Shown here: in pieces, positions 33,109-58,098 of the stretch | Layout: each line of letters starts with the position of its first letter | How positions within the stretch are numbered: position 1 is the stretch's first letter | Source of the DNA: an uncultured Muribaculaceae bacterium | GTDB lineage: Bacteria > Bacillota_I > Bacilli_A > RF39 > UBA660 | NCBI GenBank assembly: GCA_964616485.1 | Contig: CAZTRB010000001.1 | Coordinates: 5,247 to 69,246 of the forward strand | Direction of reading: 5' to 3' | Length of the DNA stretch: 64,000 nt | Notes under the pieces: generated by a model | The model's input: the letters and a program-made list of their open reading frames with translations, nothing else | Database searches by the model: none | What the model was told of the DNA's origin: nothing | Program-made: the position numbers and the translations under genes

Positions 33109-33133
33109 AAAAAAAGACTTAGTCTTTTTTTTT
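33106..33133. terminator. Bidirectional Rho-independent terminator between convergent glyQS and 33132-33995(-)
   Basis: A8-GACT-t-AGTC-T9 symmetric hairpin. Confidence 0.8.
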
Positions 33134-33995: not shown

Positions 33996-34070
33996 AAGAC
34001 CTCCTTATTATAATATAATTATACCATGATAAAAAAATAAAAAAAGAAGATAATGTAAGTTAGATTAAGT

Positions 34071-34096
34071 AAAAAAAAAGACAGAGTCTTTTTTAA
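34071..34096 (-). terminator. Rho-independent terminator of 34116-34832(-)
   Basis: A-run GAC-aga-GTC T-run palindrome. Confidence 0.6.
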
Positions 34097-34115
34097 AAAT
34101 AAATAATGTTATTAA

Positions 34116-34832
34116 TTAAAACTTTAGGTAATCGTATTCACAATCTGGAGTGTTTATTATGACTATTTTATTATATATCGTATCATCATTTACTTGACCG
34201 ACAGCAATGTCGACTCTAGCTTTTAAATTATTATTCATTGCTATTTCATCACCTATAGGCATACCCGTTACATAAACGGTAGTATTTGGTTTATTATAAA
34301 GAGTTTTAAGTTCTTCTGTCATTAATAGTTCTGTCGTAACTAGATTTCCACTCGTCAGTCTCGTTAGTTCGATTTCTGATACTAAGTCGACACCATATCC
34401 TGAAGCGTCTTGTCCCATATAATAATAGCTATAACCATCGCCATCATATGTTATACCAACATAGTTATAATTCCACGTATCGTTGAAAGGACTTTGACCA
34501 TCTCTTTCTATCCAAACACAAGCATTCTCTTTGACATGATTAATTTTTATTAGGTAAAAAACACCTTCTTCATAAGACATAGGTTTTTCACTTCGATTGA
34601 CTTCGTTTCTAATTTCGAGTATAGATACTAAAGCAGCATTTACCAATTCATTTTTTTTAGGATCAGGCGTATTATCTGTAATAGGTGGAACATCATCTTC
34701 TTTCTCTTTTTCATTCTCATTATTTGAAGTAGTCTTATTAATGATTAAAAGACTACCAACGGTTATAGAAATTACACCGATAATTATGACAAGTATTATC
34801 GATAAATTATTTTTTTTCTTTTCTTCGTTCAT
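34116..34832 (-). CDS. N-terminally membrane-anchored hypothetical protein (238 aa)
   Basis: GGAGG SD; TM segment LSIILVIIIGVISITVGSLLII; NENEKEKEDD linker. Confidence 0.72.
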   Translation of the reverse strand: MNEEKKKNNLSIILVIIIGVISITVGSLLIINKTTSNNENEKEKEDDVPPITDNTPDPKKNELVNAALVSILEIRNEVNRSEKPMSYEEGVFYLIKINHVKENACVWIERDGQSPFNDTWNYNYVGITYDGDGYSYYYMGQDASGYGVDLVSEIELTRLTSGNLVTTELLMTEELKTLYNKPNTTVYVTGMPIGDEIAMNNNLKARVDIAVGQVNDDTIYNKIVIINTPDCEYDYLKF

Positions 34833-45194: not shown

Positions 45195-45253
45195 GTTGCT
45201 AATATTGTCTAATATTCTATATTATGGTAACATAATATCTAGTGAGGTACAGT

Positions 45254-45967
45254 ATGAGAGTCTTGATAATAATCCCGGCTTATAATGAAGAAGAGAACAT
45301 CTTAAATACTGTTAAGAGTATTGAGAAGATAAAGATAAAAAACGTTGTTTTAGATTACGTAATAATCAATGATGGTTCTAAAGATAGTACCAAAGAAGTT
45401 TGTTTAAAAAACAATCTTAATTTTGTCGATCTTCCTTTTAACTTAGGAATAGGTGGAGCTGTTCAAACTGGTTATAAATATGCTTATTATAACGATTATG
45501 ATGTCGCTATTCAAGTAGATGGTGACTCACAACATAATCCTAATTATATTAAAACTCTTATCGAAGAAATAGAAAAAGGAAACGACTTTGTAATCGGTTC
45601 CCGTTTTGTAAAGGAGTTGAGTTCCTTTAAATCATCGAAGATTAGAAGAGTAGGTATATCTTGGTTAAGTATAATTACTAAGTTAGTAACCGGGAAGAAA
45701 ATCTATGATCCAACGAGTGGTTTTAGGGCAGCAAATAAAGAGATAATAAAGCTTTTTAGCGATGATTATCCAGTTGATTATCCAGAACCAGATACTAATG
45801 CTATGTTAGCTAAAAAAGGTTTTAAAATAAGTGAAATACCAGTCGAAATGAATCCAAGAACGGCAGGTAAAAGTTCAATTTCACCGTTTAAGTCGATTCA
45901 TTATATGCTAAAAGTATCTTTTTCAATTATACTTATCGGTATTATTTATAAGGGAGGTAAAAAATGA
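45254..45967 (+). CDS. Family 2 glycosyltransferase (polyprenyl-phosphate sugar synthase, GtrB/CsbB-like)
   Basis: IIIPAYNEEENI, the DGS..DST and VDGD..H DxD-type motifs. ATG 45254. Confidence 0.88.
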   Translation: MRVLIIIPAYNEEENILNTVKSIEKIKIKNVVLDYVIINDGSKDSTKEVCLKNNLNFVDLPFNLGIGGAVQTGYKYAYYNDYDVAIQVDGDSQHNPNYIKTLIEEIEKGNDFVIGSRFVKELSSFKSSKIRRVGISWLSIITKLVTGKKIYDPTSGFRAANKEIIKLFSDDYPVDYPEPDTNAMLAKKGFKISEIPVEMNPRTAGKSSISPFKSIHYMLKVSFSIILIGIIYKGGKK

Positions 45968-46332
45968 TAACTACTAATTTATTTATTTTTTTAATGTTTA
46001 TATACTTCGTTTTTATAGCTATAATCTCTTATTTAGTATCTAATAAAAAAATAACGATAACTGATTCATTATACTGGTTCTCATTTATCTTAATGATGTT
46101 TTTAGTAACACTATTTAATGGTGTTTTCAAAGATGTAGCTTCTTTTTTAGGGGTAGAAGTCGTCTCTAATTTATTGTTTTTCTTAGGCTTTATGTTTTTA
46201 ATCTTTATTTCTATAATTACAAGCGTCTATTTATCTAGACAAAAAAATAAAGTCATAACACTGTCTCAAGAAGTAGCTATCTTAAAGAAAAAAGTAGGAG
46301 AATTAGATGATCGAAAAGATAAAAAAGTATAA
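45964..46332 (+). CDS. DUF2304-family small membrane protein
   Basis: About 120 aa, 3-4 TM segments, G.EV.SN..F motif and a C-terminal L..EVA.LKKK coil; typically paired with GT2 genes. Confidence 0.75.
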   Translation: MITTNLFIFLMFIYFVFIAIISYLVSNKKITITDSLYWFSFILMMFLVTLFNGVFKDVASFLGVEVVSNLLFFLGFMFLIFISIITSVYLSRQKNKVITLSQEVAILKKKVGELDDRKDKKV

Positions 46333-46714
46333 TGTTTTTTTAAAATACTTATTTTCAGCAGGATTAAGCTTTATTCTTGATCAACTTCTTTTTTTTGTCT
46401 TTAATAGTATTTTAAAGACAAAGATAGGATCTTTAGCAATAATAATTTCGAGCGTCTTAGCGAGAACCATTAGCTCGTTATTTAATTACTTTGTTAATAA
46501 GAGAATCGTCTTTGATAATAAGGGAATTAATACTTTAGTCAAATATTTCTCATTAGTAGTTATTCAATTAGTATTTTCAACAGTTACAGTATTCGTTGTT
46601 CATACTATTACAAATATTAGGTCAGAATATATTAAGTTTTTCATTGACATAATTATTTTTATTATAAATTATCTCGTTCAGAAATATATTATCTTTGTTA
46701 AAAAGGAGAGTTAG
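46307..46714 (+). CDS. GtrA-family membrane protein (putative polyprenyl-P-sugar flippase)
   Basis: About 135 aa, 4 TM segments, F..NK..VF pattern, located in a glycosylation cluster. Confidence 0.78.
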   Translation: MIEKIKKYNVFLKYLFSAGLSFILDQLLFFVFNSILKTKIGSLAIIISSVLARTISSLFNYFVNKRIVFDNKGINTLVKYFSLVVIQLVFSTVTVFVVHTITNIRSEYIKFFIDIIIFIINYLVQKYIIFVKKES

Positions 46715-46715
46715 G

Positions 46716-48482
46716 ATGAAAGAAAAAGTTATTATAATTTTAATGTCTTTACTTAGTGCTTTTGCTTTTGTTAGTGAAATAGAAGTAAATCCATCTATTT
46801 TACTTATTTTAAGCGTCTCTTTTTCTTTTTTTTATAATAGATACTTATATAAATATAAAAACAACCCTCTTTTCTTAATTTTAGCTGTTATTTTTTCCTT
46901 GTTTATGGTAATTGGTGCTTCCGTTAAGTTAAGTGGTGGTTTCTTTATTCATATAAAGAAGTCTTATAACGTTACACTTATGCTTGTAGCTGTTCCAGGA
47001 TATGCAGTGTTTTTTAATGTCTTAATAAATTTAATAAATGATTTTTTTATTAATTATAAGATCACTTATAATTTTAAAGATAGTTGGTTAATTAAAAAGT
47101 TTAATGATAATCCCTTTAAATTTACTTTTATAACTCTATTGATATGCTATATACCTTGGATAATTAGTTATTATCCGGTAGTAATAAATCCCGATGCAGC
47201 TAAACAAATCAAAGAGTTTATGGGGCTTACAACCGATTATTTAGATAGAGTAAATTTAGTCGATCCAAACGTTATGATAACTAATTTTAATCCCGTTTTT
47301 CATACGTTTATCTTAGGAAGTTTTTTTAAGTTAGGTTATCATCTAGGTAGCGTTAATTTTGGTTTGTTTCTATATGCAATCTTACAAGTGAGTTTCGTTA
47401 TCTTTGTTTTTTCATATGCGATTAATTATATGAAAAAGAAAAAGATGAATAATGTATTGATAATTATCACGTTACTATTATATGCCTTTATCCCCGTATA
47501 TGGATCATATACGATGGCAGCAGTAAAAGATGTTTTCTTCGCTTCTTTTATCTATTTATACATTATTAAATTATATGATTATTTGAGGTATGATAACTCT
47601 TTTAAAAATTTAATAAAGATCGTCGTGCTTTCTATTTTCGTTATCTTATTTAGAAATAATGGATTCCATACGATTATCTTAAGTTTTCCTTTTCTGTTGT
47701 TTTTTACAAAAAAGAAGATTCATGTATTAACGGGAATACTTCTTATCTTATCTTTTTATCAATTGCATTTTAATATCGTCATTCCACATTTTAAGATTAC
47801 AAATACTTCGGTAGCTGAGAGTATGTCTGTTTTCTTCCAACAAACGGCAAGACTGGCAAAATACCGTCCGCATGCTTTTACTGAAAAAGATAAAGACGTC
47901 ATAGATAAATTAATTGGTTTTGATACTCTTAAAGACCGATACGAACCTCATAAAGCCGATAAAGTAAAGGATGAGATAAATAAAAATCATACGAATGAAG
48001 ATTTAAAGTCTTATTTAGAAGTTTGGAAAAAGGGATTGTATAAATATCCAGATATATATATCGATGCTACTTTAAGTAATACCTATGGTTATTTTTATCC
48101 AAATACTTATAACTGGTATTTATATAATACTTATAATACTTTATTAGAAGAGGCGGGATTCGATTATCATTATAGCAACATAATGACGATTCCAAGACAA
48201 GCATTGAAGACATATGGTGATAGTTTTTCTAAAGTACCTGTTTTGGGAGCTATTACGAATATTGCTTTTAACGTTTGGATAATTATGATTTTTTCTTGTT
48301 TGTTTATTTTTTCAAAGAAAAGAGAATTAATAATAATACTATTACCGTCATTTGCAATCGTCTTAGCGTCTCTTGTCGGTCCAATAAATACTTATTTTAG
48401 ATATATATTACCGATAGCTTATACGATGCCGTTTTATGTAACAGTCGTTTATCATGAATTAAATAAGCGTAATAAGCTTTAA
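46716..48482 (+). CDS. Large polytopic membrane protein (588 aa), candidate GT-C-type extracytoplasmic glycosyltransferase
   Basis: More than 10 TM segments plus a roughly 120-aa external loop region. The call rests on context (GT2 + GtrA). AAGGAG SD before ATG 46716. Confidence 0.6.
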   Translation: MKEKVIIILMSLLSAFAFVSEIEVNPSILLILSVSFSFFYNRYLYKYKNNPLFLILAVIFSLFMVIGASVKLSGGFFIHIKKSYNVTLMLVAVPGYAVFFNVLINLINDFFINYKITYNFKDSWLIKKFNDNPFKFTFITLLICYIPWIISYYPVVINPDAAKQIKEFMGLTTDYLDRVNLVDPNVMITNFNPVFHTFILGSFFKLGYHLGSVNFGLFLYAILQVSFVIFVFSYAINYMKKKKMNNVLIIITLLLYAFIPVYGSYTMAAVKDVFFASFIYLYIIKLYDYLRYDNSFKNLIKIVVLSIFVILFRNNGFHTIILSFPFLLFFTKKKIHVLTGILLILSFYQLHFNIVIPHFKITNTSVAESMSVFFQQTARLAKYRPHAFTEKDKDVIDKLIGFDTLKDRYEPHKADKVKDEINKNHTNEDLKSYLEVWKKGLYKYPDIYIDATLSNTYGYFYPNTYNWYLYNTYNTLLEEAGFDYHYSNIMTIPRQALKTYGDSFSKVPVLGAITNIAFNVWIIMIFSCLFIFSKKRELIIILLPSFAIVLASLVGPINTYFRYILPIAYTMPFYVTVVYHELNKRNKL

Positions 48483-48537: not shown

Positions 48538-48628
48538 GGAGACATACTCAAGAGGCTGAAGAGGCGCCCCTGCTAAGGGTGTAGATCGGGAAACTGGTGC
48601 GAGGGTTCAAATCCCTCTGTCTCCGCCA
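48538..48628 (+). tRNA. tRNA-Ser (anticodon GCT), long variable arm, CCA encoded
   Basis: Acceptor GGAGACA/TGTCTCC, anticodon loop CTGCTAA, about 19-nt variable arm, T-loop TTCAAAT, discriminator G plus CCA. Confidence 0.92.
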
Positions 48629-48766: not shown

Positions 48767-49327
48767 ATGAGTGAAGTTAGCAATTCTGATAAAGATAAGA
48801 AAAAAGAATTAAAGAAACTAATTAAAGAAGAGAAAAGAATAGATAAAAAAGACAAGCAAAAAGCCAAGAAAAAGACGAAAGAATTTAAAAGGCTAACTGC
48901 TGAAAAAGAAAAAGTTGTCGAAATAAGGAAAAAAAGACATATTTTTGAGTTTTTCGTTATTCTCGTTTTTCTCATCGTTATGTTGGTTCTTTTAGTTAAC
49001 AAAACATTCTTTAGAGAGACTTATAAAACAGATAAAATAAATATAAACATCCCACTCTTGACATATTTTATAAAAGATGACGGTAATCAAGTTGTCCTTA
49101 AAACTCTTAGAAAATCACAGTATGTAGAAGAGTATTTCGATACGTATTTATCGAATTTGACACGTTATAATTGCCAAAACACATATTTTTACTATAACGA
49201 AAATACTAAGACAGCTATATTTGATATTAAGGTAGAAAAAAAGTTCGTCGTTAAAACGGTTAAAATAAATTATAGGAATGGAAATGCCGATTGTATTTGT
49301 TCTAGTCCTACAACTGAATGCGAGTAA
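48767..49327 (+). CDS. Type II membrane protein: Lys-rich cytoplasmic N-terminus, one TM segment, about 100-aa external domain with 4 Cys; unknown function
   Basis: AAGGAG SD; KDKKKELKKLIKEEKR... region; TM segment IFEFFVILVFLIVMLVLLV; C-terminal NC...DCIC....EC. Confidence 0.7.
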   Translation: MSEVSNSDKDKKKELKKLIKEEKRIDKKDKQKAKKKTKEFKRLTAEKEKVVEIRKKRHIFEFFVILVFLIVMLVLLVNKTFFRETYKTDKININIPLLTYFIKDDGNQVVLKTLRKSQYVEEYFDTYLSNLTRYNCQNTYFYYNENTKTAIFDIKVEKKFVVKTVKINYRNGNADCICSSPTTECE

Positions 49328-49364
49328 TTAACTCGCTTTTTTCTTGCCTGTATTTGATCAATTA

Positions 49365-49393
49365 TTGACAAAAACAAAAAAATGTACTATATT
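49365..49393 (+). promoter_or_regulatory. sigma-A promoter, family copy 1
   Basis: TTGACA, 17-nt spacer, TATATT. Confidence 0.55.
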
Positions 49394-49425
49394 AATCGCA
49401 GATTTTAATGAATGGGGGATATAAA

Positions 49426-50164
49426 ATGGAAATAAAAAAATCAGTTGGACCTATTGTTCTTGCTACAGGAATTCTTTTTAGCGGTGTGCTAGACGGCCTA
49501 GTTAATTTAAACAAAGATGAAAAAGATAATAGACAAAGACAAGGAACTGTTTCTAAAATGCTGGGAATTACTACGACAAGAGCCGAAGAAGTTGAATCTT
49601 TAGAAGAGTTTGTCGAAGGATCAATTGTTGGTAATGAAGAAGAAAACGAGAGAAAAGTAAGTAAACCAGTTTCTGAACGTTATCCTGAAGTGAATTTTAC
49701 TGGAAAAGTCAATAAAAGCTTTGTAGATGAATGGTCAGAATATTTTGAACGTGAAACCCTTTATGTTTACGAAAAAGAAGTGTTGACTGCTGAGGAGAAT
49801 CCAATAACAGTTAGAATACTTAGTGGTTGGGATGATTTAGTTGAATTTAAGGATGATGAAGAGTTAACTTTTCTTGGTGAATATGTTTTTAACCCAGATG
49901 ATCTATTATTTTATCGTACCGATAAAAAAAGAGAAAAAAGGGTATCTTTTCTCTTTTGCAGAACTTTCTCATGAGTTAGATTCTAAAGATAATCTTTTTT
50001 ATAATGCGACATTTGGATTGTATCTTGACAGATTAATTTATGGTGAAAATGCGTTTAATCAAGACGAAAAAAATAGTATTTTCTCTCAAATAGAATCGGG
50101 TGATGTAGTCTTAAATTTTGATTATATTAGAGAACCAATTTTGGATCAAGGACCTACAAAATAA
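49426..50164 (+). pseudogene. Family copy 1, disrupted by a +1 frameshift inside A7/A6 homopolymers (track ORFs 49408-49974 and 49874-50164)
   Basis: Removing one A from 49924-49930 or from 49934-49939 restores ..DKKREKGYLFSFAELSHE.., colinear with copy 2 (..DKNREKGYLFSFAELSHE..). Confidence 0.85.
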
Positions 50165-50180
50165 TAAAAGGTTTAATATA

Positions 50181-50211
50181 AAATAGTATTTCTAAAGAGG
50201 TACTATTTTTT
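50181..50211 (+). terminator. Rho-independent terminator after copy 1
   Basis: AATAGTA-12 nt-TACTATT followed by a T-run. Confidence 0.65.
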
Positions 50212-50391
50212 GTGGCTAAAAAAGTATAAAAACACAAGAAATATACGTTAAAAACCGACGAGTAGCGGTCAAAAAATATTTAAGCAATAAAGGATCCAAC
50301 AATATTATCGGTGAATATTAAGCGTTGGTAAATCATTTGAGATAAAATGATTAATGTAATAATAATTTTGAAGAAAAATTACATATGAAAC

Positions 50392-50418
50392 TTGACAAAA
50401 AACAAAAAATGTTATAAT
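50392..50418 (+). promoter_or_regulatory. Promoter with consensus hexamers and extended -10, family copy 2
   Basis: TTGACA, 15-nt spacer ending in TGt, TATAAT. The spacer is shorter than optimal. Confidence 0.5.
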
Positions 50419-50450
50419 CTAGCCATATTTAATGAATGGGGGAAATTAAA

Positions 50451-51209
50451 ATGGGAATTAAAAAAACAGTTGGGACGATAACACTTGCAACAGGTATACT
50501 TTTTAGTGGCGTGCTAGATGGCCTAGTTAATTTAAACAAAGATGAAAAGGATAACAAAGTTAGACAGGGTGTGGTTTCCGAGTGGGGGATTCCTAAAGTG
50601 AGAGCTGAAGAAGTTGAGACTTTGGAAGAAATTTTGGAAAGCCAAATTGTTGGAAGTGAAAAAGAAGCGGTTGTTGAAGAGAATGTAGAAAACGAGAGGA
50701 AAGTAAGTAAGCCAGTTTCCGAACGTTATCCTGAAGTGAATTTTACTGGAAAAACTAATAAAAGTTTTGTGGATGAATGGTCAGAATATTTTGACAGCAC
50801 ACCTCTTTATGTCTACGAAAAAGAAGTGTTGAATGCTGAAGGGAATCCAATTACAGTTAGAATACTTGATGAGTGGGATGATTTAGTTGAATTTAAGGGT
50901 GATGAAGAGTTAACTTTTCTTGGCGAATACATCTTTAATCCAGATGATCTATTATTTTATCGTACTGATAAAAACAGAGAGAAAGGGTATCTTTTCTCAT
51001 TCGCAGAGCTTTCTCATGAGTTAGATCCTAAGGACACTCTTTTTGATGATTCTACATTTGCGTTGTATCTTGACAGATTAATTTACGGTGAAGGAGCCTT
51101 TAATCAAGACGAAAAATATAGTATTTTTTCTCAAATAGAATCGGGTGATATAGTCTTAAATTTTGATTATGTCAGAGAACCAATTTTAGATCAAGGACCA
51201 ACAAAATAA
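50451..51209 (+). CDS. Family copy 2: exported or N-terminally anchored protein of unknown function (252 aa)
   Basis: GGGGGA SD before ATG 50451. Hydrophobic N-terminus KKTVGTITLATGILFSGV. No recognisable domain. Confidence 0.8.
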   Translation: MGIKKTVGTITLATGILFSGVLDGLVNLNKDEKDNKVRQGVVSEWGIPKVRAEEVETLEEILESQIVGSEKEAVVEENVENERKVSKPVSERYPEVNFTGKTNKSFVDEWSEYFDSTPLYVYEKEVLNAEGNPITVRILDEWDDLVEFKGDEELTFLGEYIFNPDDLLFYRTDKNREKGYLFSFAELSHELDPKDTLFDDSTFALYLDRLIYGEGAFNQDEKYSIFSQIESGDIVLNFDYVREPILDQGPTK

Positions 51210-51226
51210 TAAAAGTTTAAATATAA

Positions 51227-51258
51227 AATAGTATTTCTAAAGAGGTGCTATTTTTTTT
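51227..51258 (+). terminator. Rho-independent terminator after copy 2
   Basis: Same hairpin as 50181-50211, with one A-to-G change that keeps pairing as a G-U wobble, followed by T8. Confidence 0.65.
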
Positions 51259-51435
51259 GTTGCTAAAAAAGAAAAAAAACAAGAAATATACGTTGAAAAC
51301 CGATGAGTAGCAGTCTACAAATATTTAGTAATAAAGGATCCAACAATATTATCGGTGAATATTAAGTGTTGGTAAATCATTTGAGATAAAATGATTAATG
51401 TAATAATAATTTTGAAGAAAAATTACATATGAAAC

Positions 51436-51462
51436 TTGACAAAAAACAAAAAATGTTATAAT
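51436..51462 (+). promoter_or_regulatory. Promoter with extended -10, family copy 3
   Basis: Identical sequence to 50392-50418. Confidence 0.5.
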
Positions 51463-51494
51463 CTAGCCATATTTAATGAATGGGGGAAATTAAA

Positions 51495-52274
51495 ATGGGA
51501 ATTAAAAAAACAATTGGGACGATAACACTTGCAACAGGTATACTTTTTAGTGGTATGCAAGACGGCCTAGTTAATTTAAACAAAGATGAAAAGGATAACA
51601 GAGTTAGACAGGGTGTGGTTTCTGAGTGGGGGATTGCTAAAGCGAGAGCTGAAGAAGTTGAGACTTTGGAGGAAATTTTGGAAAGCCAAATTGTTGGAAG
51701 TGAAGAAGAAACGATTGTTGAAGAGAACGTTGGGTTTACAAAAAAAGTAAATAAACCAGCGTCTGAACGTTATCCAGAAATTGGATTTACTGATGAGGTT
51801 AATCAATACTTTATCGATACTATGACGGAAGTTTTAAATGCTAGAAAGCACTATGTATATGAAAGAGAAATGTTAACTGAGGAGGATGTTCCTGTAAAAG
51901 TTAGAGTGATTAGTCGAAAAGATAATTTGATTTTATTAAAAGCAGACGATGACTTAACATTCCTTGGAGAGTACGTTTTCAATCCGGATGATCCAATATT
52001 TTATTATAGCGATGTTAATAGAAAAAAAGGATATATTCTTTCATTTAATGATCTTTCTCGTAAAGTTGATCCACAAAACAATCCTTTTGATAACAGTTCT
52101 GTAGCTGCTCCGTATTATGATACTTTGATATATGGTGGGAGTTCGTTTAATCAAGAAGAAAAATATAGTGTTTTTTCTCAAATAGAGTCGGGTGATTTAA
52201 CTTTTGAACTTAGTTTCGTAGGCGAACCAGAAATAGTAAATGAATATTCGTTAGAGCAAGGCCCAGCAAAATAA
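51495..52274 (+). CDS. Family copy 3: divergent paralog (259 aa)
   Basis: The first ~75 aa are nearly identical to copy 2. The central and C-terminal parts are diverged but colinear (LTFLGEYVFNPDD, FSQIESGD, EQGPAK retained). Confidence 0.8.
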   Translation: MGIKKTIGTITLATGILFSGMQDGLVNLNKDEKDNRVRQGVVSEWGIAKARAEEVETLEEILESQIVGSEEETIVEENVGFTKKVNKPASERYPEIGFTDEVNQYFIDTMTEVLNARKHYVYEREMLTEEDVPVKVRVISRKDNLILLKADDDLTFLGEYVFNPDDPIFYYSDVNRKKGYILSFNDLSRKVDPQNNPFDNSSVAAPYYDTLIYGGSSFNQEEKYSVFSQIESGDLTFELSFVGEPEIVNEYSLEQGPAK

Positions 52275-52294
52275 TTTAAAATATAATATATTAG

Positions 52295-52319
52295 AGAGTT
52301 ACATGTGTAACTCTTTTTT
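52295..52319 (+). terminator. Rho-independent terminator after copy 3
   Basis: AGAGTTACA/TGTAACTCT palindrome followed by T5. Confidence 0.8.
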
Positions 52320-52549
52320 GACGTAAATGTTTTTAATATTTTGTTACTGTAAATGAGATTGTAAAAAACAAGAATTTTTTTAGTTTGATATCAACAAGTC
52401 AAGTACATGTTCAATGAGTCCATAAAAAAATGAATAATATACTATTTGCTCTTTTTAAAAAGGTTTAAAACAATAATATGTTTAAGATAAAAAAGTTTGA
52501 AAAAAAAATGATGCTGTAGTATACTTTATATAAAGATAGGTGGAATAAA

Positions 52550-53269
52550 TTGAAAAATAAAAAGAGAAAAAAAATAATAGTATCATCATTAATAAATCTT
52601 TTAATTTTAACGGTTTTTTTTGTTTTCCCTTTTGAGGTTGAAGCCGCGAGAGAGCTTTGCACAAGCAAAATTCTTTCTGAACAAAAAAGTAAAGCACATA
52701 ATATTAATTTTGATTACGAATTAAAGTATGATGAACACAATTCATACTATTACGAAGTATCGTTTTCTAATATTAAAGAAGGAATTGAATTTTATTATGG
52801 CGGGATGGCTTATAAGTATTTAGAAGAAAAACCAACTCAAATTTTAATGCCTATGTTTGAAGGTGGAACAACTTTAGAAATGGAAGTGTTTGTTTCATAT
52901 GGATATCCTTGTGTTGGAGAAAAAGTGGGTACAAAACATTTAAAACTTCCAAAATACAATAAATACAGTGAGTTAAAAGAATGTATTGAATATGAAGAAT
53001 TCCCTTTGTGTGGAAAGCATTATGAGGGTGACATTCCTAATTTACAATATTTTACTGAAAAGCTAGAAAAATACAAAGCATCTTTAAATAAAGAAGAACC
53101 GATAGAGGTTGTTGAAAAAAACAAAAGTATTTTTGAAAAAATAATTGCTTTTTATATTAATAATTTTATAATAACTTTGCCAATTACGGTTATAATTTTT
53201 GGTTCAGGTGTTTATTATGTAATAAGAATTATAGTTAACAATAAAAGAAGAATAAAGATAAAATTTTAG
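52550..53269 (+). CDS. Exported, C-terminally tail-anchored protein (239 aa, 4 Cys), unknown function
   Basis: TTG start after an AGGTGG SD. Signal peptide ..VFFVFPFEVEA/AR. C-terminal TM segment ITLPITVIIFGSGVYYVIRII plus a basic tail. Confidence 0.72.
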   Translation: MKNKKRKKIIVSSLINLLILTVFFVFPFEVEAARELCTSKILSEQKSKAHNINFDYELKYDEHNSYYYEVSFSNIKEGIEFYYGGMAYKYLEEKPTQILMPMFEGGTTLEMEVFVSYGYPCVGEKVGTKHLKLPKYNKYSELKECIEYEEFPLCGKHYEGDIPNLQYFTEKLEKYKASLNKEEPIEVVEKNKSIFEKIIAFYINNFIITLPITVIIFGSGVYYVIRIIVNNKRRIKIKF

Positions 53270-53277
53270 GAGGTCTC

Positions 53278-56200
53278 ATGAAAAAACATATAAAATCAAT
53301 GAAATTACAATTTTTATTTGTAATTTTATTGGTAATATCACTAAATCAAGTAGTATTAGCTAATGGAACTGAAGCAAGACCTACACAAGACTCTTTAAAA
53401 GAAGCAAGCTTTCATTGGCCAGGTAGCGGTTCTGCTAATAGTTATGCAACGATAACAAATGCCGGAAAAAAGTGTGAACCAACCGACTTATGTTTTTCTG
53501 AAAATGCAATGTATGTTAAGCTTTTAAGGTATGATTACAAAACTAAAAATGTTGAAACAGTTGCAACGATTTTGTTTTATAATGGTGGAACCTTGAGCGA
53601 TGCTACTGTAGTTGATAAACCAGCAGAAGAAGCTGAACGTGTTGATTCTTGGCTTTTGAATTTTATTGGTTCAGTATTAGATTTAGCAAAAGCGGAGCTT
53701 ATGGATGGGCATACAACAGGTAAGGCAACCGTAGATAAACCTTATAAAGTTAGTCATTCTTTTTATGCGTTCGAAGAAATAACAATCTATGATAAACAGC
53801 ATATTAAAGTTTGCTCGACATCTAAAGATTGTACTAGTGGAAAAGTAAAAGTGATCTATGATCCCAATTTGCCTAAGTTAAGAAATGGGACTTTAGCTAA
53901 TTATGTTAAAGAGATTTTACAAGGTAAATATTTTGCAAGTACAGCCGCAATTAAAGAGACTTTTGGAGTAAATAACTACGATTTGAGGAATTTAGAGGAA
54001 TATTATTTTGCTTTTGAACCGGTCGCTAGGGTTGGTATTGAAAGGAAAGAAGATATTCTCAATGAAAAATATGAGCAAAAGATATCCACATTAACGCCTG
54101 ATAAAGTTGACCCTTGGTTCTACTTATATTGCCCACTAAGTCGTGAAAATAGATGGGTACGAGCGACTTCAATAGATGATGCAATCAACTCAATTACAGT
54201 TCCTTGTGGGAGTACAACTACTACCTATAGTTGTTCATTAAATTCGAATACATATAGTTCTTCATCTAATTGTAAAAGTGGTTGTAAAAAGACTACTTAT
54301 AAAGGTTATGGCTGTGCTGGAAATTCGCCGGATACAGCTATTACATATGACTCGGAAAAGAAATGTAACGATGAATGTGATACTACTTGTACATCGTCTA
54401 CAACTTCTGGAACTTGTACAGAAAACACGACCTCGAATACAGGTAGTTGGGAATATAGTTATAAAGCGGAAATGATAGGAGGAGAAATTAGATATTCAAT
54501 CTTGTTTACACGAGAATATAAAGGGGTGTCAAAATTAGTCCCTGCTAGAGAAACGGGAAAGTTGAGTTTAATTAGATCTTTGGTTTCTGATTATTATGGT
54601 GGTCCAGTTAAACACTGTATTTTAGATAGTAATAATGAGTGTACTAATAAATTTGAATATTATATTGGACCTACTTTAAATACTGCACTAGTAAGTGGTG
54701 GTGGAGACTCTAAATACCAACTTTGGGATTATGACTTAGGAGCAGCTGCTATAACTTCTGGAACTGCGTCTACTTATTCAGTTGGAGTATCATATTGGTG
54801 GCTTCCTGATGTAATACAATGTACAGACCCAGATGTTTGTGGTGGAAAGCAAGGAGATGAACTTCTTAAATGTGCTGAAAACTTTTGTGATAATGCGATT
54901 GCTTATGACTCTAGGGCAAACACAAACAAATTGAAAGAAGCTTGCATTTTAAATGATTGCGATTATAAGTATACTAGATTTAATTGTTTAAATAACAACC
55001 CATATTTAAGTGCTGCGACTCCAGATACCTCACTTTCTATTAATGCAACAAATGTGTGTAGTACTGTTGAAACAGGTAGATTGCCGAATGGACCGTCCGA
55101 AAAAAATATTAGAACGATAACTACTTGTGAGTCAGATACGAGTACAGTATTTGATCAAATGAATTTCTTAATCGTTGCTTGCAAAGAGAGTTCGTCGTTT
55201 AAATATAAAGACTTATCGACCAGAAAAATTGTTGCTGGCGAAGGCTTAGATTATTTTGCTAAACTAAAAGGTGAAAAAGAATGCTCTGTTTTTATCGATG
55301 TTGACTCTTGGAAACTCGTATACGCTTCGATTCATTCTAAAGATGAAGTAATTATTACAAAAGGTGGCGTGAAAACAGTTAAAAATTCTAGACAATTAAT
55401 GGAAGAGCTTTTAGATTATTTCAATAGTGGTTTAAAAAACGGAGTTAATGTTTCAATTGGGATAGATTTTGCAGGTAACGATGTAGCTATCTCATGGGAT
55501 CAATTAAATTATTCAATAAATAAAGTAAGTGTTAAGACCAAAGTAACAGAGATAATTAATAATAAAAAAGAACATTCAAATGAATATACTCTTGTTAGAG
55601 GAAATACGATTGAAGATGGAACACCAACAACAACTTCGACAGCAACAAATTATACTGTTGGTTATGGCAGATATGTTGGAAAGACAATGAGCATTAATAG
55701 TTATATTAATAGGAGTGTCGTAGATGTTAATTATGTATTTGATAAACATTGTGTTACGTCAGATGGAAGAGCGTCTATTTACGGAGCAGATGCACAAGGT
55801 AAGTGTAATGATGGAAATCCGGGACGAAACGTATACTATACGAGTTTAAATGCGACACCAGATAGAGACTTTATCGATGCTTTTAAACCAATTGGTGAAG
55901 GGCACTCTATAAATAAAACAGTCGCCGAAATTAAAAAGAATGTAATAGGCAATGATATATATTTAAAAGACGACGAATTTTGTCCGTATCATATTGATGG
56001 AGGCGACGATGTTAATGGAGATTTTGGATGTACAGTCGTATTAACCCCAAAACCTGGCACAGAGATGCATGGTAACAAGATTTTTGTTGGAGGAGTTATA
56101 GCAACATTAGAAATCCAAGACAATTTAAAAAATGATATAACAATTGCAAGTTATGGAATATGTCCATATGCACACCATGAAGAAAATGGATTAATAACAA

Positions 56201-57234
56201 TCGATATAGATAAACAAGATAATTATGCTGGTGAAGAAACAGTCGATATAACAGGAGTAGTTACGACTAGCAATGGTGGAATTAGGACTTGTCGTACACA
56301 AGTTGTTCTTATCTCTGATGACACAGGATGTCCAGCAAAATGTAGTGTAGAAAAAACGGCCGTAGATAACTTATATGAAATAGTCGATATATATAACAAC
56401 GCTCAGAATGTTTATACGGCAACTTCTCGTGACATTACTTTTATAAGAGTTTCAAAAAACATGGATAGGGATAGCCGTTTTAATGGGAAATATATTGTAA
56501 GAGCTGATAAGACAGAATATAGCTATTATTTATATGGAAAAGTTACTAACGTTATAGGTTCTCAACCATGTTCTAACGTTTGTTGGAATAAACTACCAGG
56601 TCCAGAATTAACCAATTGTAAAGCATTATACAAAGGTGGTGAAGTAGCTAAGATAAAAAAATATTGCGATTCATCTTGGGATAAAGATATTAATGCTTAT
56701 GAAAGCTCTAGCGATTGCGTTACTCAATGTAGTAGTGGGATATGTGAGTTGAGTGATGATTTACCAAAAGTTTCAAATGAATGTAACATAGACTTTGCCA
56801 ATTGGGGATTTGTGAATGTTTCTTCTTGTATAAATTATTGTTACAAATCACCCGGTGGTTCAGATTATCTATATCGACCTATATTAAATAAAGATCCTTT
56901 TCCTAATTCTCATATTTCAGAAGTAAAAGGAAAAAGAATAATAGGTGCTAACTGGATAGGTAAAGAGCATTATATAACAGATGATGACGATGACTTTACT
57001 AGCGCGACGGGAGCGCATGCTAATACAAATGTCGAATTTGTAATTGATTTAACCCCAAGTGATATTAGAAGAATAAGAGAAGACATTAAAAAGTATAATG
57101 ACTCAGCGAAAGGAAACGATTCATACTTAGACTATGTTTATAGGAAAGGTGTCGATGAAAAAGGGAAATATCAAAGTAAGTTTATCCATGAAACGTTTAA
57201 CGATTTATTTAAAGTAACTAATGGTGAAAGATAA
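53278..57234 (+). CDS. Very large secreted cysteine-rich protein (1318 aa), unknown family
   Basis: AGGAGG SD. Sec-type signal peptide MKKHIKSMKLQFLFVILLVISLNQVVLA/NG. About 45 Cys counted by eye. No LPXTG motif, lipobox or C-terminal anchor. Uninterrupted 3.96-kb ORF in AT-rich DNA. Confidence 0.85.
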   Translation: MKKHIKSMKLQFLFVILLVISLNQVVLANGTEARPTQDSLKEASFHWPGSGSANSYATITNAGKKCEPTDLCFSENAMYVKLLRYDYKTKNVETVATILFYNGGTLSDATVVDKPAEEAERVDSWLLNFIGSVLDLAKAELMDGHTTGKATVDKPYKVSHSFYAFEEITIYDKQHIKVCSTSKDCTSGKVKVIYDPNLPKLRNGTLANYVKEILQGKYFASTAAIKETFGVNNYDLRNLEEYYFAFEPVARVGIERKEDILNEKYEQKISTLTPDKVDPWFYLYCPLSRENRWVRATSIDDAINSITVPCGSTTTTYSCSLNSNTYSSSSNCKSGCKKTTYKGYGCAGNSPDTAITYDSEKKCNDECDTTCTSSTTSGTCTENTTSNTGSWEYSYKAEMIGGEIRYSILFTREYKGVSKLVPARETGKLSLIRSLVSDYYGGPVKHCILDSNNECTNKFEYYIGPTLNTALVSGGGDSKYQLWDYDLGAAAITSGTASTYSVGVSYWWLPDVIQCTDPDVCGGKQGDELLKCAENFCDNAIAYDSRANTNKLKEACILNDCDYKYTRFNCLNNNPYLSAATPDTSLSINATNVCSTVETGRLPNGPSEKNIRTITTCESDTSTVFDQMNFLIVACKESSSFKYKDLSTRKIVAGEGLDYFAKLKGEKECSVFIDVDSWKLVYASIHSKDEVIITKGGVKTVKNSRQLMEELLDYFNSGLKNGVNVSIGIDFAGNDVAISWDQLNYSINKVSVKTKVTEIINNKKEHSNEYTLVRGNTIEDGTPTTTSTATNYTVGYGRYVGKTMSINSYINRSVVDVNYVFDKHCVTSDGRASIYGADAQGKCNDGNPGRNVYYTSLNATPDRDFIDAFKPIGEGHSINKTVAEIKKNVIGNDIYLKDDEFCPYHIDGGDDVNGDFGCTVVLTPKPGTEMHGNKIFVGGVIATLEIQDNLKNDITIASYGICPYAHHEENGLITIDIDKQDNYAGEETVDITGVVTTSNGGIRTCRTQVVLISDDTGCPAKCSVEKTAVDNLYEIVDIYNNAQNVYTATSRDITFIRVSKNMDRDSRFNGKYIVRADKTEYSYYLYGKVTNVIGSQPCSNVCWNKLPGPELTNCKALYKGGEVAKIKKYCDSSWDKDINAYESSSDCVTQCSSGICELSDDLPKVSNECNIDFANWGFVNVSSCINYCYKSPGGSDYLYRPILNKDPFPNSHISEVKGKRIIGANWIGKEHYITDDDDDFTSATGAHANTNVEFVIDLTPSDIRRIREDIKKYNDSAKGNDSYLDYVYRKGVDEKGKYQSKFIHETFNDLFKVTNGER

Positions 57235-57378: not shown

Positions 57379-57414
57379 ATGGAATTGTCACGTGTAAAGA
57401 AGAGGTGTATTAAA

Positions 57415-58098
57415 GTGTTTTATAATGAATTAAAAACAATCAATGCTTGTGATGATGACCCGTCCCTGATTTTTCAACTACTTAGGGAAAATCATATTGA
57501 ATTAATCGATAAGATATTATCGAGAAAGACATTTGATATTAATGTAGTTGATGAAAATGGAAACAATATTTTAACGAGACTGTTAAAAAGAGGATACTAT
57601 GATATCGTATTAAACCATCTTAAAGATAAGAGATGGAATATAAACCACCAAAATAATGATGGTGATACATTTATGCATGTTTTAGTTACGATGAACTACG
57701 TTAGTGTAGTCGACATAATTAAAGCGGTTAAGAAGAATAAAGACTTGCTTCTTAATATAAAGAATAATGAAGGCGAAACGATTCTCGATAAATCTATTAA
57801 ATATGGATATATTTATACTACTTCTAAGATATTGGAAGATGAGAGATTCGATAATGTCGGAATTTTGTCTTTTAAGAATTTATATGAGACTTATATTAAG
57901 ACTAATATTTATGGAAAATATACTAAACTTAATAATTTAGAAATGATTATCGATAATTTAGAAAATAAAGACGTTAGTCCTAAAGTAAAAGAGTTAATAG
58001 AAAATTTAAAAGATAACTTTGAAGATATTAAAAATGATTTTATAAACAATAAGACTGATAATATCGATTATCTTGTAAACAAAATATTGTTTGAATAA
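57415..58098 (+). CDS. Ankyrin-repeat protein (about 227 aa, no signal peptide)
   Basis: GTG 57415 lies 7 nt after an AGAGGTG SD. About 3-4 degenerate ANK repeats (NGNNILTRLLKRGYYDIVLNHL; DGDTFMHVLV...VVDIIKAV; EGETILDKSIKYGY..T.SKIL). Confidence 0.65.
   Translation: MFYNELKTINACDDDPSLIFQLLRENHIELIDKILSRKTFDINVVDENGNNILTRLLKRGYYDIVLNHLKDKRWNINHQNNDGDTFMHVLVTMNYVSVVDIIKAVKKNKDLLLNIKNNEGETILDKSIKYGYIYTTSKILEDERFDNVGILSFKNLYETYIKTNIYGKYTKLNNLEMIIDNLENKDVSPKVKELIENLKDNFEDIKNDFINNKTDNIDYLVNKILFE

What the first reader, a model, noticed from the sequence alone, without database searches (positions are those of the whole stretch)
49363..52330. Tandem triplication of an unassignable exported-protein gene, each copy with its own strong promoter and terminator
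Three colinear genes start at 49426, 50451 and 51495, a period of 1025 and 1044 nt. They encode ~250-aa proteins with several shared parts:
- a hydrophobic N-terminus (MGIKKTVGTITLATGILFSGV);
- a conserved LVNLNKDEKDN...RAEEVE.LEE segment;
- a core containing SERYPE..FT, LTFLGEY.FNPDD, KGY..SF and FSQIESGD;
- a C-terminal (D/E)QGP(T/A)K.

Each copy has TTGACA and TATAAT-class hexamers, a GGGGGA SD, and its own Rho-independent terminator, so the copies are independent transcription units rather than an operon. I recognise no domain. Tandem, individually promoted, diverging paralogs of exported proteins are a hallmark of surface-variation, immunity-protein or host-interaction loci. That interpretation is inference. 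The array lies immediately upstream of the Cys-rich operon.
Basis: partly seen in the sequence, partly recalled or inferred. Interest (0 to 1): 0.7.

Follow-up and report, generated by a model that had tools for sequence, protein, structure and literature searches.

The report
Tandem orphan exported-protein gene triplet
Three side-by-side copies (one currently broken) of a very rare gene for an acidic, probably exported protein with no recognisable fold lie just upstream of a giant cysteine-rich surface-protein operon in an uncultured gut-type Firmicute. The array is real and its origin can be reconstructed, but its function is only inferred from its neighbours.

Summary
**Observation.** The triplication is real. 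The starts are at 49426, 50451 and 51495, and each copy has its own promoter, GGGGGA ribosome-binding site and terminator hairpin.
- Copy 1 is frameshifted by one extra A in an A6 run (49934-49939).
- Copy 2 is a chimera. Its 5' part matches copy 3 and its 3' part matches copy 1, with a single breakpoint at 50656-50692. This is the signature of unequal crossing-over.

**Selection.** dN/dS is 0.13-0.40 in every segment, so selection is purifying, not diversifying.

**Family.** It is an extreme orphan, with about six relatives among 15 billion proteins. It has no Pfam, NCBIfam, PHROG, PADLOC or PDB match. A confident model of the C-terminal domain (pLDDT 83) finds no fold relative in the PDB.

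**Context.** The promoter and leader sequence are conserved across species. In 4 of the 5 loci where the downstream DNA can be read, the gene sits directly upstream of a two-gene module. That module is a 239-aa membrane-anchored protein plus a ~1300-aa protein with 45 cysteines. In relatives the module lies inside Tad/type-IV-pilus-like clusters.

**Best reading (inferred).** It is an exported accessory protein of that surface module. Immunity and surface-variation readings are not excluded, but they are not supported.

The parts
49365..49393 (+). Promoter of copy 1: TTGACA, 17-nt spacer, TATATT
   Evidence: 11 of 12 matches. It aligns with the conserved promoter of the orthologous loci.
49426..50164 (+). 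Copy 1 (X1). It is frameshifted; the repaired frame gives 245 aa.
   Evidence: dN/dS against copy 2 is 0.20 upstream and 0.18 downstream of the frameshift.
49934..49939 (+). A6 homopolymer that carries the +1 insertion disrupting copy 1
   Evidence: Copy 2 has GAGAAAGGG at the equivalent place.
50180..50211 (+). Intrinsic terminator of copy 1: A-tract, hairpin, U6
   Evidence: dG -13.7, z -3.6. Also, inverted repeat I3.
50392..50418 (+). Promoter of copy 2: TTGACA, 15-nt spacer, TGtTATAAT (extended -10)
   Evidence: It is 99% identical to the copy 3 promoter region.
50451..51209 (+). Copy 2 (X2), 252 aa, intact. It is a chimera: the 5' part is like copy 3 and the 3' part is like copy 1.
50656..50692 (+). 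Recombination breakpoint inside copy 2, in the acidic linker
   Evidence: Max chi-square is 137.7, reached by 0 of 2000 permutations. Informative sites (c3-like:c1-like) are 60:4 to the left and 17:140 to the right.
51225..51258 (+). Intrinsic terminator of copy 2: hairpin plus U8
   Evidence: dG -12.4.
51436..51462 (+). Promoter of copy 3: TTGACA, 15-nt spacer, TGtTATAAT
51495..52274 (+). Copy 3 (X3), 259 aa, intact. It is the copy next to the downstream module and the one orthologous to the X fragment of L016.
   Evidence: shared EIVN..S insert before the C-terminus.
52293..52319 (+). Intrinsic terminator of copy 3: 10-bp stem plus U6
   Evidence: dG -12.3.
52550..53269 (+). Y: a 239-aa protein with a signal peptide, 4 Cys and a C-terminal TM helix. 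It is the conserved downstream neighbour of X.
   Evidence: It has its own promoter-like site at 52497-52525.
53278..57234 (+). Big: a 1318-aa secreted protein with 45 Cys, co-oriented directly after Y

Best explanation
**What it is (shown).** This is a tandem array of three paralogues of an orphan gene, here called X.

**The protein.**
- It is about 250 aa, acidic (pI 4.3) and free of cysteine in this genome.
- It has a short basic N-terminus followed by a ~15-20-residue hydrophobic segment. This is a Sec-type signal peptide or signal anchor, so the rest is probably outside the cytoplasm (inferred).
- Next comes an almost invariant ~40-residue segment (NLNKDEKDN.VRQG..SEW.GI...RAEEVE.LEE), then a variable acidic linker.
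- The C-terminal ~160 residues form an alpha/beta domain whose confident model has no detectable relative among solved structures.

**How the array arose (shown from sequence).**
- An old duplication produced copies 1 and 3 (dS about 1).
- An unequal crossing-over between them then created copy 2 as a chimera: the 5' part of copy 3 joined to the 3' part of copy 1.
- Later the promoter and 5' part of copies 2 and 3 were homogenised (dS 0.10 against 0.38 for the 3' part).
- All copies evolved under purifying selection.
- Copy 1 carries a very recent +1 frameshift in an A6 run. This may be a fresh inactivation, an assembly error or a slippage event.

**Expression (sequence signals shown; expression inferred).** Each copy is a separate transcription unit. 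Each has a near-consensus sigma-A-type promoter, a conserved leader, a strong Shine-Dalgarno and its own terminator.

**What it does (inferred from context).** X is an extracytoplasmic accessory protein of the adjacent Y-Big surface module. Y is a membrane-anchored 239-aa protein and Big is a giant 45-Cys secreted protein. In relatives this module is embedded in Tad/type-IV-pilus-like gene clusters. My proposal is that the conserved N-terminal segment docks X to a conserved partner at the membrane, while the more variable globular domain handles Big or a ligand of it. Extra copies would give dosage or sub-specialisation.
For: **Anatomy and array.**

**Chimera and breakpoint.** One search gives the identity profile. 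One search gives dS of 0.10 (c2-c3, N-terminal part), 0.38 (c1-c2, C-domain) and about 1.0 (c1-c3). One search gives max chi-square 137.7, reached by 0 of 2000 permutations.

**Purifying selection.** One search gives dN/dS of 0.13-0.40. One search gives 0.18 downstream of the frameshift.

**Independent units.**. The promoter and leader are conserved across loci whose proteins are only 31-40% identical.

**Orphan status.**
- Three outside relatives in 5.8 billion clusters.
- Two more in an exhaustive profile search of 1.84 billion representatives.
- No Pfam, NCBIfam, PHROG or PADLOC hit.
- No PDB sequence hit.

**Export.** One search shows a hydrophobic N-terminal window and an N-terminal KK.

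**Link to Y-Big.**
- X lies directly upstream of Y and Big in the window, L001, L004/L005 and L016.
- X-bearing loci carry the same Big subtype, 53-61% identical over the long alignments (P0009, L004). Loci without X have Big at 26-36%.

**Pilus context of Y-Big in relatives.** The neighbours are DUF5411, a CpaB/RcpC-like SAF protein, a T2SSE ATPase, T2SSF and a prepilin peptidase. DUF5411 has been linked to a predicted T4P/T2SS-like system in gut Clostridia (PMC9523054).
Against: - No experiment or structural prediction links X to Y or Big. The synteny could be inherited by descent within one small clade.
- Many Y-Big loci lack X altogether: L007/L008, L011-L013, L015 and L009/L010. X is therefore dispensable for the module.
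- One X-like gene (L006) is not followed by Y within 227 nt.
- The window itself has no Tad-like genes, DUF5411 or the PedC-like thioredoxin.
- X has its own terminator and Y its own promoter, so the two are not co-transcribed.
- The hydrophobic segment is weak. Its Kyte-Doolittle 19-residue mean is about 1.5-1.6, and below 1.5 in copy 3. Y and Big reach 2.3-2.5. No clean signal-peptidase site is conserved, so export is likely but not shown.
- The structural model rests on an alignment of only 7 sequences.
Confidence: 0.45

Rival explanations
1. Immunity or self-protection array. X proteins sit on the outer face of the membrane and neutralise Big, or a toxin-like activity of the Y-Big module. 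Tandem diverged copies would widen the range of variants that are neutralised.
For: - The genes are tandem, individually and strongly promoted paralogues of a small, probably extracytoplasmic protein.
- X co-occurs only with one Big subtype.
- Relatives carry a PedC-like thioredoxin next to the module, a type of accessory protein known from bacteriocin loci.
- There are birth-and-death traces: a truncated pseudocopy in L003 and a frameshifted copy 1.
Against: - Big has no recognised toxin, peptidase or nuclease domain.
- X lies upstream of Y-Big, in a separate unit. The usual arrangement places immunity genes immediately downstream of the toxin domain.
- Most Y-Big loci have no X.
- dN/dS is 0.13-0.40, with no sign of an arms race.
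- The weak SUKH_5 and DUF4926 hits came from single members, fell in non-equivalent regions and were below threshold.
Confidence: 0.15
2. Surface-variation or contingency locus. The copies are alternative surface antigens or ligand-binding variants, switched ON and OFF by slippage in homopolymeric A runs and reshuffled by recombination among copies.
For: - Copy 1 is OFF through a +1 change in an A6 run, next to an A7 run, with no other defect.
- Recombination among copies is documented.
- The C-terminal domains of copies 2 and 3 have diverged (dN 0.36).
Against: - Selection is purifying in all segments.
- A6 and A7 runs are ordinary in this 31% GC genome (89 and 43 in the window). They are shorter than typical phase-variation tracts (established knowledge).
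- The equivalent site in copies 2 and 3 is not a homopolymer (GAGAAAGGG and AAAAAAGGA).
- There are only three copies, with no silent cassettes or invertible elements.
- L004 has a single copy.
Confidence: 0.08
3. An unrelated neighbour. X is an exported protein with an independent role, for example in the envelope or in binding an environmental ligand. It lies next to Y-Big only through shared ancestry in a narrow clade.
For: - X has its own promoter and terminator.
- Y-Big exists widely without X.
- L006 shows X without Y directly downstream.
- The upstream neighbours of X differ in every locus: the 186-aa protein, a GNAT and a beta-helix protein.
Against: - In 4 of the 5 loci with readable downstream DNA, X directly precedes Y-Big. 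This holds although the wider context has been rearranged: window versus L004.
- The X proteins in these loci are only 31-40% identical. The adjacency has therefore survived considerable divergence.
Confidence: 0.27
4. Assembly artefact. The array is a mis-assembled or expanded repeat, and the real genome has one copy.
For: - Repeats of about 1 kb can be mis-assembled from short reads.
- The copy 1 frameshift lies in a homopolymer, which is a typical error site.
Against: - The copies differ by 4-40% at nucleotide level along their length, with a clean single breakpoint. An assembler would not create this from one copy.
- Each unit has distinct flanks.
- A related locus (L003) independently shows two tandem paralogues.
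- The other genes of the window show no obvious frameshifts.
Confidence: 0.03

Closest known systems
Tandem paralogue clusters of exported proteins in Firmicutes, e.g. Staphylococcus aureus tandem lipoproteins (Lpl, DUF576) and Csa proteins (from my own knowledge)
   Same: - Proteins of about 250 aa encoded by head-to-tail paralogues.
- A conserved N-terminal part and a more divergent C-terminal part.
- An export signal.
- Copy number shaped by unequal recombination.
   Different: - No sequence or profile similarity.
- X has no lipobox cysteine (0 Cys).
- X has a fixed genomic partner, the Y-Big module.
Immunity-gene arrays of polymorphic toxin and T7SS systems (e.g. DUF600/EsaG-like arrays, TipC-type membrane-anchored immunity proteins; SUKH/Imm families) (from my own knowledge)
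   Same: - Tandem diverged paralogues of a small protein next to a very large secreted protein.
- Pseudogenised members.
- Possible extracytoplasmic location.
   Different: - No match to any Imm or SUKH family at threshold.
- No PADLOC hit.
- The large neighbour has no toxin domain.
- X lies upstream, in separate transcription units.
- Selection is purifying.
flp pilin genes upstream of tad loci and Gram-positive type IV pilins (from my own knowledge)
   Same: - Strongly expressed small genes, often tandemly duplicated, encoded just upstream of pilus-related genes.
- An N-terminal hydrophobic helix followed by an alpha/beta domain.
- The Y-Big module of relatives lies in Tad-like clusters.
   Different: - The class III signal is missing. 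There is no conserved Gly at -1 and no Glu at +5 (alignment).
- X is much larger than Flp.
- A 40-residue polar conserved segment and an acidic linker follow the hydrophobic stretch.
DUF5411-containing predicted type IV pilus / T2SS-like system of gut Clostridia (Miller et al. 2022, PMC9523054)
   Same: Relatives of the window's Y-Big module lie beside DUF5411, a CpaF/T2SSE-type ATPase, T2SSF and a prepilin peptidase.
   Different: - X, Y and Big are not among the components named in the passage read from that paper.
- The window's own locus lacks DUF5411 and all pilus genes.

Membership tests
Any curated protein family (Pfam-A, NCBIfam, PHROGs, PADLOC) | Profile match at or above the curated threshold | tested here: not met
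   - Copies 2 and 3 gave 0 families at E <=0.1 in all four libraries.
- Seven family members scanned at E <=10 gave only scattered single-member hits. These were below threshold and in non-equivalent regions.
Type IV pilin / Flp pilin (class III signal peptide) | A short basic leader ending in Gly, cleaved by a prepilin peptidase, with Glu at +5 of the mature hydrophobic helix | tested here: not met
   Alignment A5. The residue before the hydrophobic core is G, K or S depending on the member. No Glu is conserved within the hydrophobic segment.
Bacterial lipoprotein (incl. tandem Lpl/DUF576 type) | A lipobox with an invariant Cys at the end of the signal peptide | tested here: not met
   Copies 2 and 3 contain no cysteine at all. 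Only P0006 has a Cys in that region.
Sortase-anchored surface protein | A C-terminal LPXTG-type motif, then a hydrophobic segment and a basic tail | tested here: not met
   The C-termini read ...ILDQGPTK and ...LEQGPAK. There is no LPXTG and no C-terminal hydrophobic segment.
Polymorphic-toxin immunity array | Location immediately downstream of a protein carrying a recognisable toxin domain | tested here: not met
   X lies upstream of Y-Big, with its own terminator. Big matches no toxin family and no PDB sequence.
Polymorphic-toxin immunity array | Direct binding to, and neutralisation of, the cognate toxin | not testable with these tools
   This needs biochemistry or genetics.
Phase-variable contingency gene | A long simple-sequence tract in the promoter or 5' coding region whose length changes switch expression | tested here: inconclusive
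   - The only candidate is an A6 run in copy 1, at codon ~170.
- Equivalent sites in copies 2 and 3 are not homopolymers.
- A6 and A7 runs are common in the window.
- Population heterogeneity cannot be tested without reads.
Sec-exported or membrane-anchored protein | An N-terminal basic n-region followed by a hydrophobic h-region | tested here: met
   - The N-terminus is MGIKK followed by TVGTITLATGILFSGVL.
- The Kyte-Doolittle 19-residue mean is 1.5-1.6 in copy 2 and just under 1.5 in copy 3.
- The feature is conserved in all members.
- Whether it is cleaved or remains an anchor was not resolved, because no dedicated predictor was available.
Divergent paralogue of its neighbours (Y, Big, 186-aa protein) | Detectable profile similarity | tested here: not met
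   An hmmsearch of the X profiles against the neighbours found nothing meaningful. hhalign of the X C-domain against the 20-member Y alignment gave probability 0.3%.

The most novel reading that the evidence does not exclude
X defines a new protein fold and a new, previously undescribed component class. It would be a membrane-tethered, highly expressed specificity factor, chaperone or immunity factor dedicated to a giant disulfide-rich secreted protein (Big). Big itself would belong to an uncharacterised cargo or adhesin module of Tad/type-IV-pilus-like machines in uncultured gut Firmicutes. The tandem copies would then represent ongoing diversification of that partner-recognition function.
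Probability: 0.2. Interest if true: 0.6.

Novelty: new variant of a known kind. Interest (0 to 1): 0.4.

Why it matters
If the inferred link holds, X is the first handle on how a very rare module is serviced at the cell surface. That module is built around a ~1300-aa, 45-cysteine secreted protein and is attached, in relatives, to poorly understood Tad/type-IV-pilus-like systems of gut Firmicutes.

The C-terminal domain is a confidently modelled fold with no relative among solved structures. That makes it a reasonable target for structural genomics.

The array is also a clean example of how unequal crossing-over plus gene conversion builds a small gene family.

Without functional data, however, it remains an orphan hypothetical-protein array. 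No long-standing question becomes testable because of it.

Tried and rejected
**Family and defence libraries.** Pfam, NCBIfam, PHROGs and PADLOC gave nothing for X. The weak SUKH_5 hit (P0005 residues 56-104, i.e. the acidic linker) and the DUF4926 hit (P0004 residues 121-152) are noise. Each came from a single member, they fell in non-equivalent regions, and both were below threshold.

**PDB by sequence profile.** Nothing below E 0.4.

**Structure.**
- The full-length model was poor (pLDDT 45) and its Foldseek hits (enolase and others) were meaningless.
- AlphaFold DB was not available.

**More loci.** Pattern-seeded scans of GTDB genomes, JGI metagenomes and IMG/VR with the X and Big alignments all returned nothing. 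These scans depend on two short peptide patterns, so the negatives are weak. For example, P0007 does not contain the patterns used.

**Plasmids and phages.** tblastn found no match.

**Genomic island at tRNA-Ser.** There is no repeat of the tRNA 3' end and no compositional anomaly, so this idea was rejected.

**Pilin idea.** Rejected on the missing class III signal.

**X as a paralogue of Y, Big or the 186-aa protein.** Rejected.

**Structured RNA.** No Rfam family other than tRNAs was found in the window. The fold of the 170-nt intergenic stretch is no better than shuffled sequence (z -0.9).

**Contig of P0009.** The 55.7-kb NCBI contig that carries P0007 and P0009 could not be retrieved.


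Full report
**1. Checking the observation**

ORF listing and direct reading confirm three colinear homologous units. Their ATG starts are at 49426, 50451 and 51495, spaced 1025 and 1044 nt. The repeat finder recovers three-copy families across the whole unit.

Copies 2 (252 aa) and 3 (259 aa) are intact. Copy 1 is not. It is split into ORFs 49408-49974 and 49874-50164 by one extra A in GAGAAAAAAGGG (49931-49942). Removing one A restores a full 245-aa protein that is 83% identical to copy 2.

The upstream in-frame ATG or TTG inside the GGGGG motif is not consistently in frame across orthologues. GGGGGA lies 7 nt before the chosen ATG.

- **Promoters.** Copy 1 has TTGACA, a 17-nt spacer and TATATT. 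Copies 2 and 3 have TTGACA and TGtTATAAT separated by only 15 nt, so the scan missed them.
- **Terminators.** Each stop codon is followed by a hairpin and a U-run. The stem is 13 bp after copies 1 and 2 and 10 bp after copy 3. dG is -12 to -14 kcal/mol and z is -2.5 to -3.6.

The observation therefore holds, apart from the broken copy 1 and the short spacers.

**2. How the array arose**

A sliding identity profile of the three units gives the following picture:
- The promoter, leader and first ~230 nt of copy 2 are 92-100% identical to copy 3. The promoter region itself is 99% identical.
- From about 50690 to beyond the stop codon, copy 2 is about 88-90% identical to copy 1 and only 50-70% identical to copy 3.

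Informative sites switch once, between 50656 and 50692. To the left, c3-like sites outnumber c1-like sites 60:4. To the right the ratio is 17:140. Max chi-square is 137.7 and none of 2000 permutations reached it.

This is the expected product of an unequal crossing-over between two older paralogues. The ancestors of copies 1 and 3 differ by dS of about 1.0. The exchange created a chimeric middle gene.

The two halves of the duplicated segment differ in age. dS is 0.38 for the 3' half and 0.10 for the 5' half. The 5' half and promoter were therefore probably homogenised later by gene conversion.

Nei-Gojobori dN/dS is 0.13-0.40 in every segment and pair. All three copies have been kept by purifying selection. 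Downstream of the copy 1 frameshift, dN/dS (0.18) equals the upstream value (0.20), and no further stops occur. The frameshift is therefore very recent, or an assembly error, or a slippage event.

**3. What the protein looks like**

- **Composition.** X is acidic (pI 4.3-4.5) and has no cysteine in this genome.
- **N-terminus.** It is MGIKK followed by a moderately hydrophobic ~17-residue stretch rich in small residues. This fits a Sec signal peptide or signal anchor. No conserved signal-peptidase site, lipobox or prepilin site is present.
- **Best-conserved part.** The following ~40 residues are the most conserved in the family (L28, N29, N35, R38, Q39, G40, S43, G46, R51-E53, E56, L58-E60 and E63 are invariant in 7 sequences).
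- **Linker and C-domain.** An acidic linker of variable length follows, then a ~160-aa domain with the motifs ERYP, YVYEKE, G.Y.FNPDD..FY and Q..SG.
- **Models.** A full-length AlphaFold model was poor (pLDDT 45). The C-domain alone, with a 7-sequence alignment, gave pLDDT 83 and pTM 0.80. Its order of elements is strand, long helix, five antiparallel strands, then a second helical part.

**4. How rare it is**

- The indexed search of 5.8 billion clusters found only three outside relatives, P0004-P0006 at 34-42% identity.
- An exhaustive profile search of 1.84 billion representatives added P0007 and a fragment, P0008.
- No curated family, defence-system model or PDB sequence matches.
- Plasmid and phage collections have no match.
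- Pattern-seeded scans of GTDB, JGI and IMG/VR were negative, but they are insensitive.
- One source sample is a swine-manure lagoon (SRR13442943; PMC8140134 and PMC9692488). I take the record names STEW19-1 and MUNK22-1 to point to rumen and sewage surveys; this is my inference from the names.

**5. Genomic context**

The window is ordinary chromosomal DNA of a 31% GC Firmicute. It carries PNPase, Lon, ProRS, MraY, a PASTA kinase, trigger factor, MiaB-YmcA, LexA, XerD-type recombinase and Tdk.

A tRNA-Ser gene lies at 48538-48628. I found no att-like repeat and no compositional anomaly, so there is no evidence for an island.

Directly downstream of the array are two genes:
- **Y (52550-53269).** It has a signal peptide, 4 Cys (all four invariant in the 20-member alignment) and a C-terminal TM helix.
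- **Big (53278-57234).** It is 1318 aa with a signal peptide and 45 Cys.

X is directly followed by Y and Big in four loci:

| Locus | What is seen |
|---|---|
| Window | X array, then Y and Big |
| L001 | Y 58% identical; the Big N-terminus shares CEPTDLCFS |
| L004/L005 | Single-copy X; Y 51% and Big 53% identical |
| L016 | Y 66% identical; the upstream fragment is a copy-3-type X C-terminus with the same EIVN..S insert |

L002 and L003 end too soon to tell. In L006 a broken X is followed by something else. L003 carries a truncated, frameshifted second X upstream of P0006. Duplication and decay therefore recur in the family.

The promoter and the leader (TAGCCATATTTAaTGAATGGGGGAA) are conserved in all seven units. 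The proteins they precede are only 31-40% identical.

**6. What the neighbours are**

The Y family has 20 clusters. The contexts seen in relatives are:

| Locus | Gene order |
|---|---|
| L007/L008 | PedC-like thioredoxin lipoprotein (opposite strand), Y, Big (1479 aa), DUF5411, CpaB/RcpC-like SAF protein, T2SSE ATPase |
| L009/L010 | Y, DUF5411, T2SSF, prepilin peptidase |
| L011-L013 | DUF5411, Y, Big |
| L015 | Thioredoxin, a Y paralogue, Y |

None of these loci has X. Their Big proteins are only 26-36% identical to the window's. In X-bearing loci the figure is 53-61% over the long alignments.

DUF5411 was reported as part of a predicted type IV pilus / T2SS-like system of gut Clostridia (PMC9523054).

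The window itself contains none of these pilus genes, nor the thioredoxin. X is not a divergent paralogue of Y, Big or the 186-aa upstream protein.

**7. Interpretation**

*Shown:*
- A real three-copy array of an orphan gene, with one copy broken.
- Its recombinational history.
- Purifying selection on all copies.
- Independent transcription signals that are conserved across species.
- A conserved position upstream of one subtype of the Y-Big module.

*Inferred:*
- X is exported or anchored on the outer face of the membrane.
- X acts as an accessory of Y-Big. The invariant juxtamembrane segment would be the docking element and the globular domain the working part.

I put about 0.45 on this package. 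The anatomy and history are near certain. The functional link is about one in three.

*Rivals:*
- An unrelated neighbour kept by descent (0.27).
- An immunity array (0.15).
- A phase-variable or variant surface locus (0.08).
- An assembly artefact (0.03).

**8. Novelty and score**

The kind of locus is familiar: a tandem array of exported paralogues built by unequal crossing-over. The family and apparently the fold are new, and the partner module is uncharacterised. There is no evidence of a new mechanism.

Interest is 0.4. It is worth a structural and genetic follow-up, but it is not a surprise to a specialist on present evidence.

Noticed in passing
window 52550-57234: The Y-Big operon is itself uncharacterised. 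Y is 239 aa with a signal peptide, 4 invariant Cys and a C-terminal TM helix. Big is 1318 aa with 45 Cys. Neither has a Pfam, NCBIfam or PDB match. Only one full-length Big homologue (P0009, 61% identical) was found in 5.8 billion clusters. In relatives the pair sits beside DUF5411, a CpaB-like protein, T2SSE, T2SSF, a prepilin peptidase and a PedC-like thioredoxin lipoprotein.
   Followed up: partly
window 57379-58098: A 239-aa ankyrin-repeat protein lies directly after Big (Ank_4 E 2.6e-11; weak similarity to the Legionella AnkG effector model). This is unusual for a free-living Firmicute chromosome. It lies between the Cys-rich operon and miaB.
   Followed up: no
window 48767-49327: A 186-aa orphan protein lies immediately upstream of the array. 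It has a Lys-rich N-terminus, one strong TM helix (residues 55-85) and a ~100-aa C-terminal part with 4 Cys. It has its own terminator (49320-49336 plus a T-run). No homologue was seen at the related loci.
   Followed up: partly
window 48538-48628: A tRNA-Ser(GCU) gene lies just upstream of the 186-aa gene and the X, Y-Big and ankyrin block. No repeat of its 3' end and no GC anomaly were found, so there is no evidence of an integrated island.
   Followed up: yes
window 50392-50418 and 51436-51462: The promoters of copies 2 and 3 carry a 2-nt deletion in the spacer: 15 nt, against 17 nt in copy 1 and in L001-L004. They keep TGnTATAAT. The two younger copies may therefore be expressed differently from copy 1 and from the orthologues.
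   Followed up: partly
window 50419-50450; L001-L004 equivalents: A ~30-nt leader (TAGCCATATTTAaTGAATGGGGGAA) lies between the -10 box and the start codon. It is almost invariant among loci whose proteins are only 31-40% identical. This is more conservation than a Shine-Dalgarno alone explains, so it may be a regulator-binding or translational element.
   Followed up: partly
L003 1-250: A truncated, frameshifted X pseudocopy of the window/P0004 type (IDGLVNLNKDENANNLRQ ... ISERY*) has its own hairpin. It lies directly upstream of the intact, divergent P0006 gene. This is independent evidence of tandem duplication and decay in the family.
   Followed up: partly
L006 24-772 and 960-999: An X-like gene is split into 97-aa and 123-aa ORFs on a very low-coverage contig. 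It is followed by the start of a different ORF (MKQQIFSDIEY...), not by Y.
   Followed up: no
window 45242-48482: A GT2 glycosyltransferase, DUF2304, a GtrA-like protein and a DUF6020 membrane protein (595 aa) form a probable cell-surface glycosylation cluster just upstream of tRNA-Ser.
   Followed up: no
L015 2799-3452: In this relative, the gene upstream of Y is a 217-aa paralogue of Y itself. The Y gene can therefore also duplicate in tandem.
   Followed up: partly
window 33132-34832 (minus strand) and 1222-2154: Three ORFs of 238-310 aa have no Pfam match at E <=1e-4. They lie among otherwise housekeeping genes.
   Followed up: no
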